This document shows, one piece after another, positions 7,510 to 43,559 of a stretch of DNA of 64,000 nucleotides. Under the pieces are notes generated by a model, which made no database searches, was not told the DNA's origin, and saw nothing but the letters and a program-made list of their open reading frames with translations. The DNA is taken from positions 47,988,001 to 48,052,000 of the forward strand of contig NC_043002.1 in NCBI RefSeq assembly GCF_006345805.1, written 5' to 3'. Position 1 is the first letter of the stretch. Each line of letters opens with the position of its first letter. The position numbers and the translations under genes are program-made. This DNA comes from Octopus sinensis. Taxonomy: Eukaryota.

Positions 7510-7530
7510 CCACAGGCATTATTTGATAAC
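7510..7530 (-). other. Candidate 21-nt microexon (GTTATCAAATAATGCCTGTGG)
   Basis: Minus strand: TACTAAC (7556-7550), ctttaacatttatcatcag, exon, GTAAGTA donor (from 7509), TGCATG at 7492-7487; length is a multiple of 3; phase-1 reading xYQIMPV. Confidence 0.6.
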
Positions 7531-21080: not shown

Positions 21081-22074
21081 GGCAGTTTTCCATTGCAGAA
21101 TAATATAAAAGTTGTTACTTAGCCACATATAAATTCTGAGAGAAGAAGACCATTTACCAAGGCCATCCCAGCCATTACCTTACCATTAATTCTTAAGGAA
21201 ATGTGTGATACAAATACCAGCAGCAGCAATATTTACTATGTCCTTTAAACAGGTGGGTGTAAGTGGAGGGAGATTTTTTAAAGTTATTTCTAGCATGTTT
21301 AGTGACTATGTAGAACACAAAGAGTATTCAGTCATGGGCTTAAATAGCTTATACATATATTTCTATAGCACAGTGATTGAGAGTACAGTTAATCAAAATA
21401 AAATATTTTATAACCAAAGTTATATATCTTCTCATGACAAACTATTTTAGATTAATCAAATTTACAAACATAAAATGTGTAAAAATATATATCATAAGGA
21501 ACATTTTATTGTGCTAGACTGTTTTTATTTTCACATATACTTATTTGATACAATTCCATAAAATGAGCAGAAGGTTTTGTATTTCTGTATAGTAGAAGTT
21601 AATCATTGACAGAATGGTAAATCAAGTGATAAAATGTAAGATTTGTGTTGTTGCGTGTTTTATCAGTACTGTATAGAAAATTTACAGGAGGAAAGACCTT
21701 CCAGGCATAATGGACTTCAGATTGTTGAAAACAGATATATGTTGTAATTAGTTTTTGTAGAGCAGTGAACCCATATTAAAAGACATCTGAAGCATTTAAT
21801 CAATAGTAATACTTTATTTAAAGTCACAACTAGATGTGTAAATCAGTGTGTATGCTCAAAGATTACAATCTTCCCAGCTGCAGATATCTTTGTACTTGAA
21901 ACTATGTACATCCTTAAAGGATCTTTGAAAGGTCAATTCTAGAATTTATAAATCTGAGCTAGGTCAGATAAGATTTTCAACTTTTACACTGCATTCCTTA
22001 CAACCAACATCAAATAGCTTCAAAATACTTAAACACAAAGAAAAAAGTCACAGGCAAAGCCGTCTAATGTAAAT

Positions 22075-37175: not shown

Positions 37176-37415
37176 TTGAACCTTTCTTAACAAAATGATA
37201 TCATTTTTTTATAAACTATATAGATTATATAATAAAGTATTATAATCAATTATGATATATTTATCCACTGCCATGTACAACTTTATTTAGATCAGAAATA
37301 AATTGACTGCTGATTGAGATCCACTGTTTCATTCTATTGATACAATAAATTAAAAGAAAAAAGAAAAGAAAATGGAAGATAAAAGTATAGTAGCAAGAAG
37401 AATTGTTCAACTTAC

Positions 37416-37454
37416 TTTTTTTGGGTGCCATAACCGATTCAGTATATTTTTGAC
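37416..37454 (-). other. Candidate 39-nt exon of an unidentified minus-strand gene
   Basis: Minus: tttctttttttttttacag|GTCAAAAATATACTGAATCGGTTATGGCACCCAAAAAAA|gtaagt; open as VKNILNRLWHPKK (phase 0) or xQKYTESVMAPKK (phase 1). Confidence 0.65.
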
Positions 37455-38441
37455 CTGTAAAAAAAAAAGAAACTGGTTTAGAAATCGAAATACCTTCTTC
37501 AAGAATGATGGAAATAATTTTACTATTAAATGAGTTATTAGAACATTCTGATCAATATTTTCTCAGACATGCTCACATCAACATATATGATATATTTGAA
37601 TTAGAAATACAAAATTGAGAATTTAAAGAAAATTATAAACACATAACATAATATTTTATTTTTATTTTACACTTATAAACAAATAAAGAACCTGCTAACT
37701 CCCATGAGATTTGGTTTAACACCAAAAGATTCATTTTCAAGTATTGTTTCATTTTGAAGGTATGTCAATTTAGCACAGCTTGTCCTTCTCACTCCTATTT
37801 ACTACAGCAGGAAATTGAAAATGTGAGAAGCATGTAAGTTGAACTGGCTCAACTGGGAATCAAATTTGTATTTTCACACTCAGTTTGCCAAAAGTACATT
37901 AAGTTTCTATGGGTATTTATTGTTTATGCTTAGTAGCATTAAATAAGTAGCTAGTTTTCTTTTTGTTAGAATTTTCATATAAGTATTCTTTCCCCAAGTA
38001 AAATTATTTGTATGTAGGAAAAAGAAAGAAGAAAAGAAGAAATGACTTTCTTTTATGTTTATTTCCTGGTTATCAACATATATTCTCATTTAATATATAC
38101 AAATATATTCTCTGAATAATCCTACTTCATTAATAAATAATTGTTGTAGTTTTCAAATATTTATCAATCATTTGTTTAGATTTAGTTTCTTCATACATGT
38201 TCTGATCTTTTTCAATGAGCTAGTAACCTCTGCCTAGTTTATTTTCTCACAGTATAGTGGAGCTTATTCTAGACTTTTCTAGGCCAACTATTGTTAAATA
38301 GAAATGTTTCCTCTTTGTGAATTATTTATCTTATAGTTACTCCACATACAAAATATATTCTGTGATTTCAAATAAAGGGATAAACCAAGGCTATTCAACA
38401 AATTTATCTTGCTCAGCTTTGCCATGATTCATTTCATGTGA

Positions 38442-39689
38442 TTGATAACGTGTCATCAAAAAAAAAAAAAAAAAAATACTTGATCCTTGATATCTCTCTT
38501 AATTTCTATCCTTTGTTTACTTGCGAAAGTCTTTATAAAGAAATCTGTCAGATTATATACAATAATTCAACTTGTTTTGTCTTCTTCTTACACCACCTCA
38601 AAAACTTCACTCAGTCAAGCTCACCTTATTAATCTATGTTAGAAAACTCATTCCTCATTGGAGACAAAATGTGCATTTAACCATTAAAGTGTTTCTATGA
38701 GTTTGAATAAAGTCAATCTGGTCCCAATCTTCATTGAATAATAGACAATCAGTTTGGGAAGCAAACGTTTTGGGTTTAGGCACAATTATCACTGTGGGGA
38801 TGAGGAATGTGCTTCATAGCTATTTAGCTTGGATTTGATCTTACTGCATGAGATATTAGATAAAATTTCTTCTACATAACTTAATTTGAAAAATGCTTAG
38901 TGAGAGAAATTTAATTACAGAAACTATTTGGAAGCCTTGTTTAATCCCACTACCACCTCATCCCTAGGAGCATTTAACCAACTACCTTCTGTTGAAACTC
39001 TTTAGGACAGGTTTCTGGTCTGACAAAAGTTGGGAGCACAGTTCTTTCTCCTAGGACTAAGTTATGAAAATTTAAAAAATCTTTACTTACATCAAGAAAC
39101 TACAGAAGTACATCGGTTCTTCATTGACCTTAGTTTCCTTAAACATAAGTTTATTGATGATTCCTGGCATCATGATATTAAGATAATTATATTTATGACA
39201 TTATATTTGAGGTAAGTCTAGTAAACCTGTTCTTTCTACTCATCTGAAAATTCTTTGTGCTTAAGCCAAGATAAAGGTGTCTGTCATATTCTCTAATACT
39301 ATATCTTCTTATCAGAATTCTTACTTACTAAAAATAAATTGCAATAAATTTTCTGTTTGTAGAAGTGCATAGTTATTATGATATCTAAATAGATGGAATT
39401 TGCAATCTATTGAACAGATAATATGTTGTCTGTAGTCACTTGGAAAAGTGTAAAAGTATCTATTTAGAAGAGTAGGATGTAGGCTTTCTATTTAAACAAC
39501 TATTTTACAAAAACTAATTACAGCATAGAAAGAAATCTGCTTTCACCAACCAGTATGGTTTTCATGAGTTAAAATTCACATCTACAATATTCCTATTCAT
39601 TACTGATGAAGCACACCAGGACACAAATCCCACGTTAAAACATTAAAATAAGCATTCTCACAATAAATAATTTTCTTGGTATACAGAAA
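38442..39689 (+). repeat. Left arm of a ~1.24 kb inverted duplication
   Basis: Reverse complement of 40460-41690; about 11 substitutions and 3 indels by manual comparison. Confidence 0.97.
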
Positions 39690-40120
39690 TAAATATATCA
39701 ACTAGTTTTAGCATAAAAACATTTTGGCACAATAAAATGCTGATAAATTGGAGGATATATTCTAAGAGATTCAATATCTATTGAAAATTGAGTCATTTGT
39801 TTTTAATAGATTTTATTAGAATTCTTAAAGTCTAAAATCATTCATATTGAATTTGAGACATATATATGTGTTCTATTTCACTACCACCTTTACAGCTATG
39901 ACTGTTAAAGATATACAAAAAGCTTTTTCATTTCATTCAATATTTTCTCCATTTCAAATTAAATTACATATTGATTTTATGTTCATATTCAAGCCTTGAC
40001 ATTGATTCAATATTTAAATGAAAGATGAAGCTTATATCTTAATATATTTCTTAAATGAATTAAGAAAGTCGTACAGTACAGGTTTTGCAATATATATCAC
40101 TCGCTTTCATAATATATTGT

Positions 40121-40197
40121 TTACATTGCCTATAGCTGATATTTTGGCATTAAATGTCCTATTCAAAGATTGAAAAACAACCAAAATCTTATAGCAA
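40121..40197 (+). repeat. 77-bp direct repeat of 43243-43319 inside the inverted-repeat spacer
   Basis: ttacattgcctatagctgatatttt(g/a)gcattaaatgtcctattc(a/g)aagattgaaaaacaaccaaaatcttatagcaa, 2 mismatches. Confidence 0.95.
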
Positions 40198-40459
40198 GAC
40201 TTCTTAGAATTTCTAATTTCTCAGAATTTCACTCTTATCACTAAATTTCATCATTGAAGCACTGAGCCTTCTTTGTGAAATAAAGTCTCTAAATAGGTTT
40301 CCATTTGAAAATTCTTCTAGAAGCATACTACTTCCTTTTCTGGTTTGAATAAATTGATAATTTCATTTAAATCTTGAAATATACCGAAGTTATATGGTAG
40401 AAGTAATTTTGTTTTTTTTCCACACTCTCTGCACCTCTCTGCTCCTTATCAGCCTGAAT

Positions 40460-41690
40460 TTTCTGTATACCAAGAAAATTATTTATTGTGAGAATGCTTA
40501 TTTTAATGTTTTAATGTGGGATTTGTGTCCTGGTGTGCTTCATCAGTAATGAATAGGAATATTGTAGATGTGAATTTTAACTCATGAAAACCATACTGGT
40601 TGGTGAAAGCAGATTTCTTTCTATGCTGTAATTAGTTTTTGTAAAACAGTTGTTTAAATAGAAAGCCTACATCCTACTCTTCTAAATAGATACTTTTACA
40701 CTTTTCCAAGTGACTACAGACAACATATTATCTGTTCAATAGATTGCAAAATTCCATCTATTTAGATATCATTATAACTATGCACTTCTACAAACAGAAA
40801 ATTTATTGCAATTTATTTTTAGTAAGTAAGAATTCTGATAAGAAGATATAGTATTAGAGAATATGACAGACACCTTTATCGTGGCTTAAGCACAAAGAAT
40901 TTTCAGATGAGTAGAAAGAACAGGTTTACTAGACTTACCTCAAATATAATTATCTTAATATTATGATGCCAGGAATCATCAATAAACTTATGTTTAAGGA
41001 AACTAAGGTCAATGAAGAACCGATGTACTTCTGTAGTTTCTTGATGTAAGTAAAGATTTTTTAATTTTTCATAACTTAGTCCTAGGAGAAAGAACTGTGC
41101 TCCCAACCTTTGTCAGACCAGAAACCTGTCCTAAAGAGTTTCAACAGAAGGTAGTTGGTTAAATGCTCCTAAGGGTGAGGTGGTAGTGGGATTAAACAAG
41201 GCTTCCAAATAGTTTCTGTAATTAAATTTCTCTCACTAAGCATTTTTCAAATTAAGTTATGTAGAAGAAATTTTATCTAATATCTCATGCAGTAAGATCA
41301 AATCCAAGCTAAATAGTTATGAAGCACATTCCTCATCCCCACAGTGATAATTGTGCCTAAACCCAAAACGTTTGCTTCCCAAGCTGATTGTCTATTATTC
41401 AATGAAGATTGGGACCAGATTGACTTTATTCAAACTCATAGAAACACTTTAATGGTTAAATGCACATTTTGTCTCCAATGAGGAATGAGTTTTCTAACAT
41501 AGATTAATAAGGTGAGCTTGACTGAGTGAAGTTTTTGAGGTGGTGTAAGAAGAAGACAAAACAAGTTGAATTATTGTATATAATCTGACAGATTTCTTTA
41601 TAAAGACTTTCGCAAGTAAACAAAGGATAGAAATTAAGAGAGATATCAAGGATCAAGTTTTTTTTTTTTTTTTTGATGACACGTTATCAA
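40460..41690 (-). repeat. Right arm of a ~1.24 kb inverted duplication
   Basis: Reverse complement of 38442-39689; the twin ORFs 39030+ and 41106- confirm the match. Confidence 0.97.
40939..41081 (-). other. Candidate 143-nt exon inside the right arm
   Basis: Minus: ttctttctcctag|GACTAAG...TTTGAG|gtaagt; one frame is open from phase 1 to phase 0 (GLSYEKLKNLYL...KIIIFE). Confidence 0.35.
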
Positions 41691-43559
41691 CCAAATGAAT
41701 TTGTGACTGAAAATTCTTATAAAAATGTATGGAATATATATTTGCAGTACTGTTAATGCAAATTAAATGAATTAAAAAGGCCACACAACATATTTAACTA
41801 GTAGTTATAGTATATATGATATGTTCCATACATTTTATTTCAACTACACACAATTGTTCAATTAAGGAAAGAGAAGAAAAAAAACAAAATTATTGTCACC
41901 GTAAAACATCAAGTTCAACCAAGATTCTGGCTGGGTTATTGATCCACACTGGGAAAGTTGCTTATTACCAACAGAATTTACAAATGGAAAACTAGTTAGA
42001 AATTCTATCTCATGAATGTTTACCAGACTTTCATAAGACAATGGTGATACAGTAGATTTAGTGTAATAGTGGCAATCAAAAAATAACTGACCAAAGAATA
42101 TCTGAAATCATGTAACAGTTTGTTGTTTTTTAGTTTTTTATATGACATTCTATGCTGGAATATCAACTCTAGGCTATGTAAATAATTTTCTATGGAAAGC
42201 AAGTGATATTTAAGCTATAAGGTGTGACTATCTTAATTCAGTTAACTTGAGTGAACTTACACTACTATAATTCATACATTTTATTTCAACTAAATTAATT
42301 TCTTAAAAGACTAAGTTTCAATTCATAGGATATAAAGATTTTTAGTAGAAAACTATTTTGATATGTACATATTGCATATATCTATTTCTCCTTATTGTAT
42401 TTAAAATTAAGAATTCCAAATGAAAGTTATATGGCAATAAAATGGCAGTTATATAACAATAAAATAAATCTGACATAAAACCTAACCCTATATACAAATA
42501 TTTACATTCTAGGTGAGACTAATGTTGAAAAGATGAACAATGATTACATTGAAGTGTGTCATATACTTGCATGAAGTATGGTGAGAAACAGAATATTCTC
42601 AGTTTATTCTGTATGAATTTCTTAATTTTCTCTCCCCACCTACAATATTTTCAGCTTGGGTAGACATTGAAATCTTTCAACCATGTAAAGCAATAAGCAA
42701 TAAACTGAAGCCTCTATTATGGAAATGTTAGCTTGTCAAGCAACATAAAAAATATTATTTGTATATAATATCTAAATAAAAAAAATTAAAAACTGTAAAT
42801 ATATATCACTGATTACATTTACAAGAAAATGCAATCATTGTCATAAAATAAAAGCCAAATTTTGAAATATATACACTAGAAAAGATTTTAAAGGAAACAT
42901 TGTTTCAAGGTGATTGCTCATGGAATGATGCTGTTCACTAATACTTCTTGACATTCTGTTTCACTTCACAAGATAGACCAATGAAATGTCATATTGCATA
43001 ATTATCAAAAATGTCAGCAAGAACAAGGTCCTCTTTCATATTCTAGTTATGATAAAAAGCTTATAAATATCAACAATTTATGCTTATACAAAATAAATTT
43101 AAGACTTTATAAAATATAATAAAAACATTTAAATAAAGGAAATTAATTTACTTGCTAAAGACATTTTTGAGAACTTTACAATAAATTTTTAGTAAAATAT
43201 CATAAACTGAAAATAGGATATGTTCCATACATTTTATTTAACTTACATTGCCTATAGCTGATATTTTAGCATTAAATGTCCTATTCGAAGATTGAAAAAC
43301 AACCAAAATCTTATAGCAATGTTAAGGAAAATCAGAAAATATTCAGACTACTGGCCACTGATTAGTTGATGACAATTAAATTAGAGACAGTTCGTAGAAA
43401 TTGAAAAATCTCTTGTTTCTTTCATTTTCATAACAAAATTAAAATTCATCAGTTATGCAAAGTGAGGTACAACAAGATTGCATTGCAGTCAAGCAGGTGT
43501 GATGGGTAAATTGTTGCCATTTTGTATTTTTAATTTTGTGCATGCATATTGCTTTTGAC

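What the first reader, a model, noticed from the sequence alone, without database searches (positions are those of the whole stretch)
38442..41690. ~1.24 kb, ~99% identical inverted duplication with a 770-bp spacer: potential giant intronic dsRNA
Seen: 38442-39689 and 40460-41690 are reverse complements with about 11 substitutions, a poly(A) length difference, a 14-bp indel and a 1-bp indel. The arms match none of the window's repeat families, and no TSD or transposase was found. Established: long intramolecular duplexes are substrates for ADAR and Dicer, and coleoid cephalopods have unusually extensive A-to-I editing. Inference: if the region is transcribed as part of the minus-strand pre-mRNA, it folds into a >1.2 kb duplex about 1 kb upstream of the 39-nt exon. 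It could be hyper-edited, yield endo-siRNAs or change splicing. The ~1% divergence is also compatible with two alleles mis-assembled in inverted orientation.
Basis: partly seen in the sequence, partly recalled or inferred. Interest (0 to 1): 0.8.

Follow-up and report, generated by a model that had tools for sequence, protein, structure and literature searches.

The report
Young inverted copy in agrin intron
A real 1.2-kb stretch has been copied back-to-front inside an intron of the octopus agrin gene, likely by a DNA-copying slip; its RNA would fold into a long double strand that is likely edited, but long inverted repeats are common in this genome and no function was shown.

Summary
The inverted repeat is real: arms 38442-39689 and 40460-41690, 11 substitutions, 770-bp spacer. 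It is not a mis-assembly. Two short-read runs show the arm at 1.7-1.9x depth, all four junctions at single-copy depth and no empty allele. It is not a transposon's terminal repeats: the arm has no other close copy in G000, and a ~5%-diverged relative joins the spacer straight to the right flank. Older repeats crossing both inner junctions agree: the left arm is the original, and the right arm is a later inverted copy dropped into an old repeat. This fits a local template switch (likely). The host is agrin on the minus strand; the duplex would end 987 nt before the 39-nt exon. A ~1,220-bp duplex is predicted and incidental ADAR editing is likely, but editing, small RNAs and splicing effects are untested. 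Inverted repeats of 1 kb or more occur at 2 loci in 1.2 Mb of control sequence, both made of repeat families. Verdict: a genuine, well-polarised but ordinary structural variant; low interest.

The parts
38442..39689 (+). Left arm, 1,248 bp: the original (donor) intronic segment; old, decayed sequence with no coding signal
   Evidence: an old paralog at 21393-21957 runs on from this arm into the spacer start (null 2 of 300); 0 Pfam hits in 15 of 15 arm and spacer ORFs scanned
39690..40459 (+). 770-bp spacer in its ancestral orientation; about 39990-40459 is a copy of an old low-copy repeat family ('X') that is cut at 40459 by the right arm
40460..41690 (-). Right arm, 1,231 bp: derived inverted copy inserted between ancestral neighbours 40459 and 41691, with no target-site duplication
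   Evidence: family X runs on across 40459|41691 in L006, L007, L011; null 0-1 of 300; X12 record 11 joins 40458 to 41693
41691..42300 (.). Right flank: the continuation of the cut X copy (to about 41800), then an older X copy in the opposite orientation (about 65% identical to the spacer)
38433..38441 (+). Imperfect microhomology at the outer junction: 7 of 9 bases match the reverse complement of 41691-41699; none at the inner junction
   Evidence: chance about 0.005 for either of two junctions; scored after it was seen
40939..41081 (-). Exon-like 143-nt piece (pyrimidine tract, AG ... GTAAGT) that the inversion turned into the sense direction of agrin; open in agrin's entry frame but would shift the frame at its end; found in none of the proteins held
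   Evidence: 0 of 27 proteins hold any 8-mer of it
37416..37454 (-). 39-nt agrin exon (linker after the NtA or transmembrane N-terminus); its 3' splice site lies 987 nt beyond the outer end of the duplex
43217..43319 (+). Separate, likely older patch: 23 bp matching 41818-41840, followed by a 77-bp, 97%-identical direct copy of spacer 40121-40197; also present in the outgroup run, so not part of the arm duplication

Best explanation
This is a real, young local inverted duplication in a long intron of octopus agrin: the 1.23-kb right arm is a reverse-complement copy of the left arm inserted 770 bp away, likely by a template switch during replication or break repair, and the pre-mRNA would fold into a ~1,220-bp duplex that is likely edited by ADAR as a by-product, likely without a selected function. 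Shown: the repeat, its presence in short-read data from two samples, its absence at the insertion site in an outgroup, which arm is new, and the host gene. Inferred: the mechanism (switch points in ancestral order 3-2-1-4 or its mirror 1-4-3-2: leave the template at one edge of the insertion site, copy the arm on the opposite strand, return), the age (about one sixth of the time since the split from organism E if the arms have not been homogenised), duplex formation (both arms are transcribed about 1 kb before the intron's 3' splice site, so they are present before the intron can be removed), editing, and neutrality.
For: Real: the arm contig has depth 83.5 (X1) and 96.5 (X6) against about 48-56 and 34-55 for the unique contigs; contigs run across all four junctions; no 40459-41691 joint is listed. 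Polarity, three lines: repeat family X continues across 40459|41691 but not into the right arm (3 of 5 outside loci with null <=1 of 300, the other 2 weaker at 11 and 27 of 300); an old paralog continues from the left arm into the spacer start but not the spacer end; the outgroup X12 joins 40458 to 41693 in one contig. Not a mobile element: 2 of 2 G000 hits are the arms themselves, no target-site duplication, no Pfam hit. Microhomology of 7 in 9 at the outer junction. Events of type 3-2-1-4 and 1-4-3-2 generate single inverted repeats (PMC7954356, passages). Duplex: 1,220 pairs, -2,083.8 kcal/mol, unbroken runs up to 306. Editing of intronic inverted repeats rises with closeness and likeness (PMC526178, abstract and passages). 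Ordinariness: 2 loci with inverted repeats >=1 kb, >=95%, spacer <=10 kb in 1.2 Mb of control sequence, and 26 inverted pairs >=100 bp, >=75%, <=5 kb apart in the 314-kb agrin block.
Against: Each junction contig reaches only 30 letters into the arm, one short of the tool's 31-letter rule for bridging, and no long read spanning both arms was seen. X1 may be the assembly's own sample, so only X6 is an independent individual. The outgroup has 16 letters at the empty site where my join has 3, so about 13 bp were lost or gained there and the letters were not printed. The outgroup shows no cover at 37190-40155, so the left arm was not seen directly in it. There is no microhomology at the inner junction. 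The published four-point events are tens to hundreds of bases, far shorter than this one. Neutrality is argued from background frequency, not tested; no unique-sequence inverted repeat of 500 bp or more was found in the 1.2-Mb control, so this exact kind is rarer than the repeat-derived kind.
Confidence: 0.78

Rival explanations
1. The duplex is functional: it changes recognition of agrin's first shared exon (the 39-nt exon), controls a frame-shifting cryptic exon at 41081-40939, or feeds Dicer, and so tunes agrin output in this octopus lineage.
For: The duplex closes 987 nt before the 3' splice site of a 54-kb or 171-kb intron. The insertion appears homozygous in both samples laid. The inversion put a splice-site-bounded, in-frame-entry 143-nt piece into the sense direction. 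One contig from a run guessed to be RNA lies in the arm while the spacer and most of the flanks have no cover.
Against: The structure is young and absent at this site in the outgroup, whose relatives make full-length agrin (P0020, P0019). Many other inverted pairs lie in the same gene. The cryptic exon is in 0 of 27 proteins held. Two samples cannot tell fixation by selection from drift.
Confidence: 0.07
2. Same structure, other route: the right arm came from an RNA or excised-DNA intermediate, or from local re-insertion of a rare mobile piece, captured at a double-strand break, not from a replication template switch.
For: The inner junction has no microhomology, about 13 bp differ at the empty site, and the copy ends 16 bp beyond an A-tract.
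Against: Donor and copy are only 770 bp apart and inverted; there is no target-site duplication, no tail at the copy's end, no dispersed copies, and no A>G bias among the 11 differences.
Confidence: 0.09
3. Inversion by staggered breaks: the spacer was flipped and the arm duplicated at the two breakpoints.
For: Inverted duplications flanking a unique segment are the recalled signature of this route. One weak match between the left flank and the repeat terminus was seen (score 42 against a shuffled maximum of 32).
Against: The spacer is in its ancestral orientation at both ends: left arm into spacer start, spacer end into right flank. A profile of the repeat terminus finds nothing in the left flank.
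Confidence: 0.02
4. Assembly artefact: two alleles, or a chimeric read, assembled in inverted orientation.
For: No single read or contig spanning both arms was seen, and junction contigs reach only 30 letters into the arm.
Against: Arm depth is 1.7-1.9x, not half; all four junctions are present at single-copy depth in two runs from different samples and studies; no empty allele is listed. Arm divergence (11 of 1,229; 0.9%) exceeds the difference between X6 and the reference in the flanks (10 of 3,952; 0.25%; Fisher p = 0.004).
Confidence: 0.02
5. The arms are the terminal inverted repeats of a fold-back or long-TIR element, and the spacer is its interior.
For: Such elements are common here: 10 of the 14 inverted repeats examined are made of repeated sequence.
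Against: No other close copy of the arm in G000, no target-site duplication, no Pfam hit, and the spacer is ancestral host sequence that stays joined to the right flank in the outgroup.
Confidence: 0.02

Closest known systems
Template-switch inverted duplications, four-point model types 3-2-1-4 / 1-4-3-2 (PMC7954356, passages read)
   Same: The inserted segment is the reverse complement of nearby ancestral sequence, copying resumes at or near the point of departure, the product is one near-perfect inverted repeat, and the direction is resolved with an outgroup.
   Different: 1.23 kb copied across 770 bp, against tens to hundreds of bases in that study; an octopus, not apes; microhomology at only one junction.
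Intronic inverted repeats edited by ADAR, such as inverted Alu pairs (PMC526178, abstract and passages; PMC9989829, passages)
   Same: Two close, oppositely oriented, highly similar segments in one pre-mRNA, predicted to pair within the molecule.
   Different: The arms are one locally duplicated, old, near-unique sequence, not two insertions of a mobile family; the duplex is about four times an Alu's length and 99% matched; editing here is not shown.
Fold-back and long-TIR transposons, and Penelope-like elements with inverted repeats (PMC3846280, passages)
   Same: Long near-identical inverted arms around a short interior; a family of this look supplies other long inverted repeats in this genome and in this gene.
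   Different: No dispersed copies, no target-site duplication, no coding remnant, and the interior is host sequence older than the second arm.
Hairpin-RNA (hpRNA) endo-siRNA loci (recalled, not read here)
   Same: A young, lineage-specific inverted duplication able to form a long hairpin.
   Different: It lies inside an intron with no sign of a transcript of its own, its arms match no gene that could be a target, and no small-RNA data were available.

Membership tests
Template-switch inverted duplication (four-point 3-2-1-4 / 1-4-3-2) | Inserted segment is the reverse complement of nearby ancestral sequence | tested here: met
Template-switch inverted duplication (four-point 3-2-1-4 / 1-4-3-2) | Flanks of the insert are adjacent, or nearly so, in the ancestor, direction set by an outgroup | tested here: met
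   X12 record 11 joins 40458 to 41693, with 16 letters between where 3 are expected
Template-switch inverted duplication (four-point 3-2-1-4 / 1-4-3-2) | Microhomology at the switch points | tested here: inconclusive
   7 of 9 at the outer junction, none at the inner; the ancestral letters at the site were not printed
Template-switch inverted duplication (four-point 3-2-1-4 / 1-4-3-2) | Arose in one replication or repair event | not testable with these tools
   inferred from the anatomy only
TIR transposon / fold-back element | Arms have dispersed copies elsewhere in the genome | tested here: not met
   2 of 2 hits are the arms; the search skips very common words and misses old copies
TIR transposon / fold-back element | Target-site duplication at the outer ends | tested here: not met
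   best match 3 bp with 4 bp of slack
TIR transposon / fold-back element | Empty site lacks both arms and the interior | tested here: not met
   the spacer stays joined to the right flank in the outgroup
TIR transposon / fold-back element | Transposase or RT remnant | tested here: not met
   0 Pfam families in 15 ORFs scanned of the 37 of 30 aa or more listed
Staggered-break inversion | Segment between the duplicated arms is inverted relative to the ancestor | tested here: not met
ADAR-hyper-edited intronic inverted repeat | Both arms lie in one pre-mRNA | tested here: met
   agrin exons on both sides on the minus strand, from database gene models; the intron RNA itself was not observed
ADAR-hyper-edited intronic inverted repeat | Long, closely spaced, well-matched duplex | tested here: met
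   (predicted)
ADAR-hyper-edited intronic inverted repeat | Clustered A>G changes in RNA against DNA of the same animal | tested here: inconclusive
   one 293-nt contig with 0 differences, from a run only guessed to be RNA; contigs drop rare variants
hpRNA / endo-siRNA locus | Stable hairpin transcript cut into 21-22-nt RNAs | not testable with these tools
   no small-RNA run was listed

The most novel reading that the evidence does not exclude
A single replication slip gave one octopus lineage a 1.2-kb, 99%-matched intronic duplex just before the first exon shared by the secreted and transmembrane agrin forms, and turned a cryptic frame-shifting exon into the sense direction inside it. If hyper-editing or Dicer cutting of this duplex now tunes agrin splicing or level, the locus would be a dated natural experiment (present against absent in close species) on how new ADAR substrates acquire function in cephalopods.
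Probability: 0.07. Interest if true: 0.6.

Novelty: new member of a known kind. Interest (0 to 1): 0.22.

Why it matters
As it stands it is a clean, polarised example of a kilobase-scale local inverted duplication retained in an animal intron, and a convenient test case: one species has the second arm and a close relative lacks it, so editing and splicing can be compared with and without the duplex. It does not by itself show new biology, because octopus introns, including this gene's, already carry many near-perfect inverted repeats from young repeat families. It would matter more only if the duplex were shown to change agrin splicing or to yield small RNAs.

Tried and rejected
Assembly artefact, fold-back or TIR element, and staggered-break inversion were tested and rejected. 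My early idea that the 77-bp copy at 43243-43319 came from the same event was dropped: the outgroup contig runs through that patch and breaks at both copies, so it is likely older. An early hint that repeat X continues in the left flank did not survive the profile search and the junction test. Rfam: 0 matches in the window. Pfam: 0 families in 15 arm and spacer ORFs. No RNA holder was listed for the stretch; this is no evidence on expression. The outgroup run has no cover at 37190-40155 and the RNA-guess run none at the 39-nt exon; the tool filters records, so these holes prove nothing. The 293-nt contig beside the A-tract is on the wrong side for oligo-dT priming at that tract (reasoning from the sequence) and stays unexplained. 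Only 4 of the 24 listed runs could be laid. Earlier findings of the scan: nothing shown in 3 of 3 look-ups. Paper searches turned up no description of this locus in their listings: 0 papers; 59 papers, 15 listed; agrin and octopus; 16 papers, 15 listed, none on this by title or abstract start; the library lacks most subscription journals, and no supplements were read, so published editing-site tables could bear on the editing question. A search of 314 kb for a second linker exon like that of P0020 found none. Pfam did not confirm the Penelope-like label of the control element.

Full report
Observation. The window is G000:C6:47988001-48052000 in a 2.72-Gb genome. Positions 38442-39689 (1,248 bp) and 40460-41690 (1,231 bp) are reverse complements around a 770-bp spacer, with 11 substitutions, a 4-bp difference at the A-tract, a 14-bp indel between 9-bp direct repeats, and a 1-bp indel. 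Nothing else in the window comes close in length and identity. A search of G000 with the arm, and with a 401-bp inner piece at a looser threshold, returned only the two arms; this search skips very common words and misses old copies. A more sensitive profile search of 1.5 Mb that I held found one old partial copy in the same window and three weak hits elsewhere, so the arm is old decayed sequence, not a young mobile element. Rfam gave nothing, and 15 of the 37 ORFs of 30 aa or more were scanned in Pfam with no hit.

Host gene. An exon found 74 kb beyond the 39-nt exon encodes a Kazal domain and is identical to part of a protein that its sources name agrin of Octopus sinensis. Mapping the isoforms places, on the minus strand, an NtA exon at C6:48196469-48196945, an alternative first exon with a hydrophobic stretch at C6:48079846-48079998, the 39-nt exon at window 37454-37416, and an optional 21-nt exon at window 7530-7510. 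The repeat therefore lies at the 3' end of an intron of 54 kb or 171 kb, and its outer end is 987 nt before the 3' splice site. These are database gene models; I did not see the intron RNA.

Real or artefact. Of 24 runs listed I laid 4. In X1 (organism A; possibly the assembly's own sample) and X6 (organism B, another sample and study; about 80% read), the two arms collapse into one contig of depth 83.5 and 96.5, against about 48-56 and 34-55 for the unique contigs. Separate contigs cross all four junctions at single-copy depth, and no joint from 40459 to 41691 is listed. The arms differ by 0.9% (95% interval 0.45-1.6%), more than X6 differs from the reference in the flanks (10 of 3,952; p = 0.004) or X1 does (3 of 3,952). 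An artefact would need half depth and missing junctions, so I reject it. No read spanning both arms was seen.

Which arm is new. The right part of the spacer and the right flank belong to an old, low-copy repeat family. Its likeness to other copies stops at 40459. When the spacer's end is followed in a script by each candidate neighbour, only 41691 onward continues the family sequence: null 0, 0 and 1 of 300 for L006, L007 and L011, and 11 and 27 of 300 for L059 and L008; the right arm adds nothing in any of them. On the other side, an old copy at window 21393-21957 runs from the left arm into the spacer start (null 2 of 300) and not into the spacer end. Directly, the outgroup run X12 (organism E, 114 differences in 2,125 letters, 5.4%) has one contig that covers 40156-40458 and then 41693-43301. 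It has 16 letters between these where my join has 3, so about 13 bp were lost or gained at the site. The ancestor was thus left flank, left arm, spacer, right flank, and the right arm was added later. This excludes a terminal-repeat element (the spacer is host sequence; no target-site duplication) and a staggered-break inversion (the spacer was not flipped). Against this: X12 shows no cover at 37190-40155, so the left arm was not seen in the outgroup. If the arms have not been homogenised, the event dates to about one sixth of the time since the split from organism E.

Mechanism (inferred). The anatomy is a switch-point order of 3-2-1-4 or its mirror 1-4-3-2, the two patterns reported to produce single inverted repeats (PMC7954356, passages), though that study concerns far shorter events. 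The polymerase left the template at one edge of the insertion site, copied 1.23 kb of the opposite strand from 770 bp away, and returned. The outer junction has 7 of 9 matching bases (chance about 0.005 for either junction, scored after it was seen); the inner junction has none. Capture of a local template at a double-strand break gives the same product and cannot be told apart here.

Consequence for RNA (predicted). On the minus strand the arms pair over 1,220 bases at -2,083.8 kcal/mol with unbroken runs up to 306; the inner 291 bp plus spacer fold as one stem. Of the 11 differences, 5 give A:C, 3 G:U, 2 A:A and 1 C:U. Both arms are made about 1 kb before the 3' splice site, so they should be present before the intron is removed. 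In human RNA, editing of inverted repeats rises with closeness and likeness and most pre-mRNAs are edited in introns (PMC526178, abstract and passages); repeats are the main editing target across animals (PMC9989829, passages). I put incidental editing at about 0.75. My only RNA-like evidence is neutral: X20, a run guessed to be RNA, has one 293-nt contig over 38486-38766 at depth 14.6 with no differences. The inversion also turned a 143-nt exon-like piece (41081-40939) into the sense direction; it is open in agrin's entry frame and would shift the frame at its end, and none of 27 proteins held contains it.

How unusual. Six 200-kb blocks chosen without prior look hold inverted repeats of 1 kb or more, at least 95% identical and within 10 kb, at 2 loci, or 0.2-6.0 per Mb, which extrapolates to hundreds or thousands in the genome. 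The 314-kb agrin block holds 26 inverted pairs of 100 bp or more at 75% or more within 5 kb, 4 of them (this one included) 200 bp or more at 95% or more. I examined 14 of the 23 inverted matches of 150 bp or more, leaving out overlapping and widely spaced ones: 10 are built of repeated sequence and 4 are not (this one and three of 153-286 bp). One family has 1,521 candidate places in G000, several of the 40 scored lying as inverted pairs. So long, near-perfect intronic duplexes are common here; what is less common is that this one is made of near-unique sequence (0 such of 500 bp or more in 1.2 Mb).

Verdict. Observation confirmed; interpretation partly supported. This is a real, young, polarised local inverted duplication in an agrin intron, a new member of a known kind. 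It works like an inverted-Alu duplex in all likelihood, but editing, small RNAs and any effect on agrin are untested, and the background argues against special meaning. Interest 0.22. The boldest reading still open, that the duplex tunes agrin splicing in this lineage, has probability about 0.07.

Noticed in passing
L074:7846-7998 (G000:C6:48079846-48079998) and L082 (C6:48196469-48196945): Octopus agrin models have two alternative N-termini: a signal peptide plus NtA domain, or a short first exon with a hydrophobic stretch inside the next intron (P0017, P0009). This mirrors the secreted and type II transmembrane forms that PMC2874008 (passages) describes for vertebrate agrins. Whether it is known in molluscs was not settled by the listings.
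   Followed up: partly
window 37416-37454: The linker exon differs strongly between octopus agrins (13 residues here; 14 in P0020, alike only at the start) although the flanking domains are over 90% identical; no second copy of such an exon was found in 314 kb.
   Followed up: partly
window 7510-7530: A 21-nt agrin micro-exon on the minus strand, present in most listed isoforms and skipped in P0001 and P0009.
   Followed up: yes
L099:2698-8582 (G000:C1:60112698-60118582); C6:48119457-48122460: A young family (98% identity, 1,521 candidate places) that often stands as inverted pairs; one copy has 2.1-kb inverted arms and broken ORFs, and a shorter relative lies in the agrin gene. One ORF resembles reverse-transcriptase clusters (score 0.91, RVT_1 in 68% of members); Pfam found nothing relevant. 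The label Penelope-like rests on recalled motifs. It is likely a much larger source of intronic double-stranded RNA than the finding itself.
   Followed up: partly
window 39990-42300; L005-L011, L054, L058, L059, L061: An old low-copy repeat family with a conserved ~90-bp terminal block, found both as inverted ends (L007) and head-to-tail (L006, L011). Before the insertion, two opposed copies formed an old ~65%-matched palindrome centred near 41800, about 110 bp from the insertion site.
   Followed up: partly
window 41818-41846, 42273-42292, 43217-43319: A 20-23-bp block occurs three times exactly, and 77 bp of the spacer is copied at 97% next to the third; it looks like small templated patches, older than the arm duplication.
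   Followed up: partly
window 38486-38766: The only long contig of run X20 (guessed to be RNA) lies at the outer end of the arm next to the A-tract, depth 14.6, no differences; unexplained.
   Followed up: no
six control blocks and the agrin block: Pairs of 200 bp or more, 95% or more identical and within 5 kb were inverted in 10 cases and direct in 2; small numbers, mostly repeat-derived, but an excess of close inverted pairs may deserve a genome-wide count.
   Followed up: no
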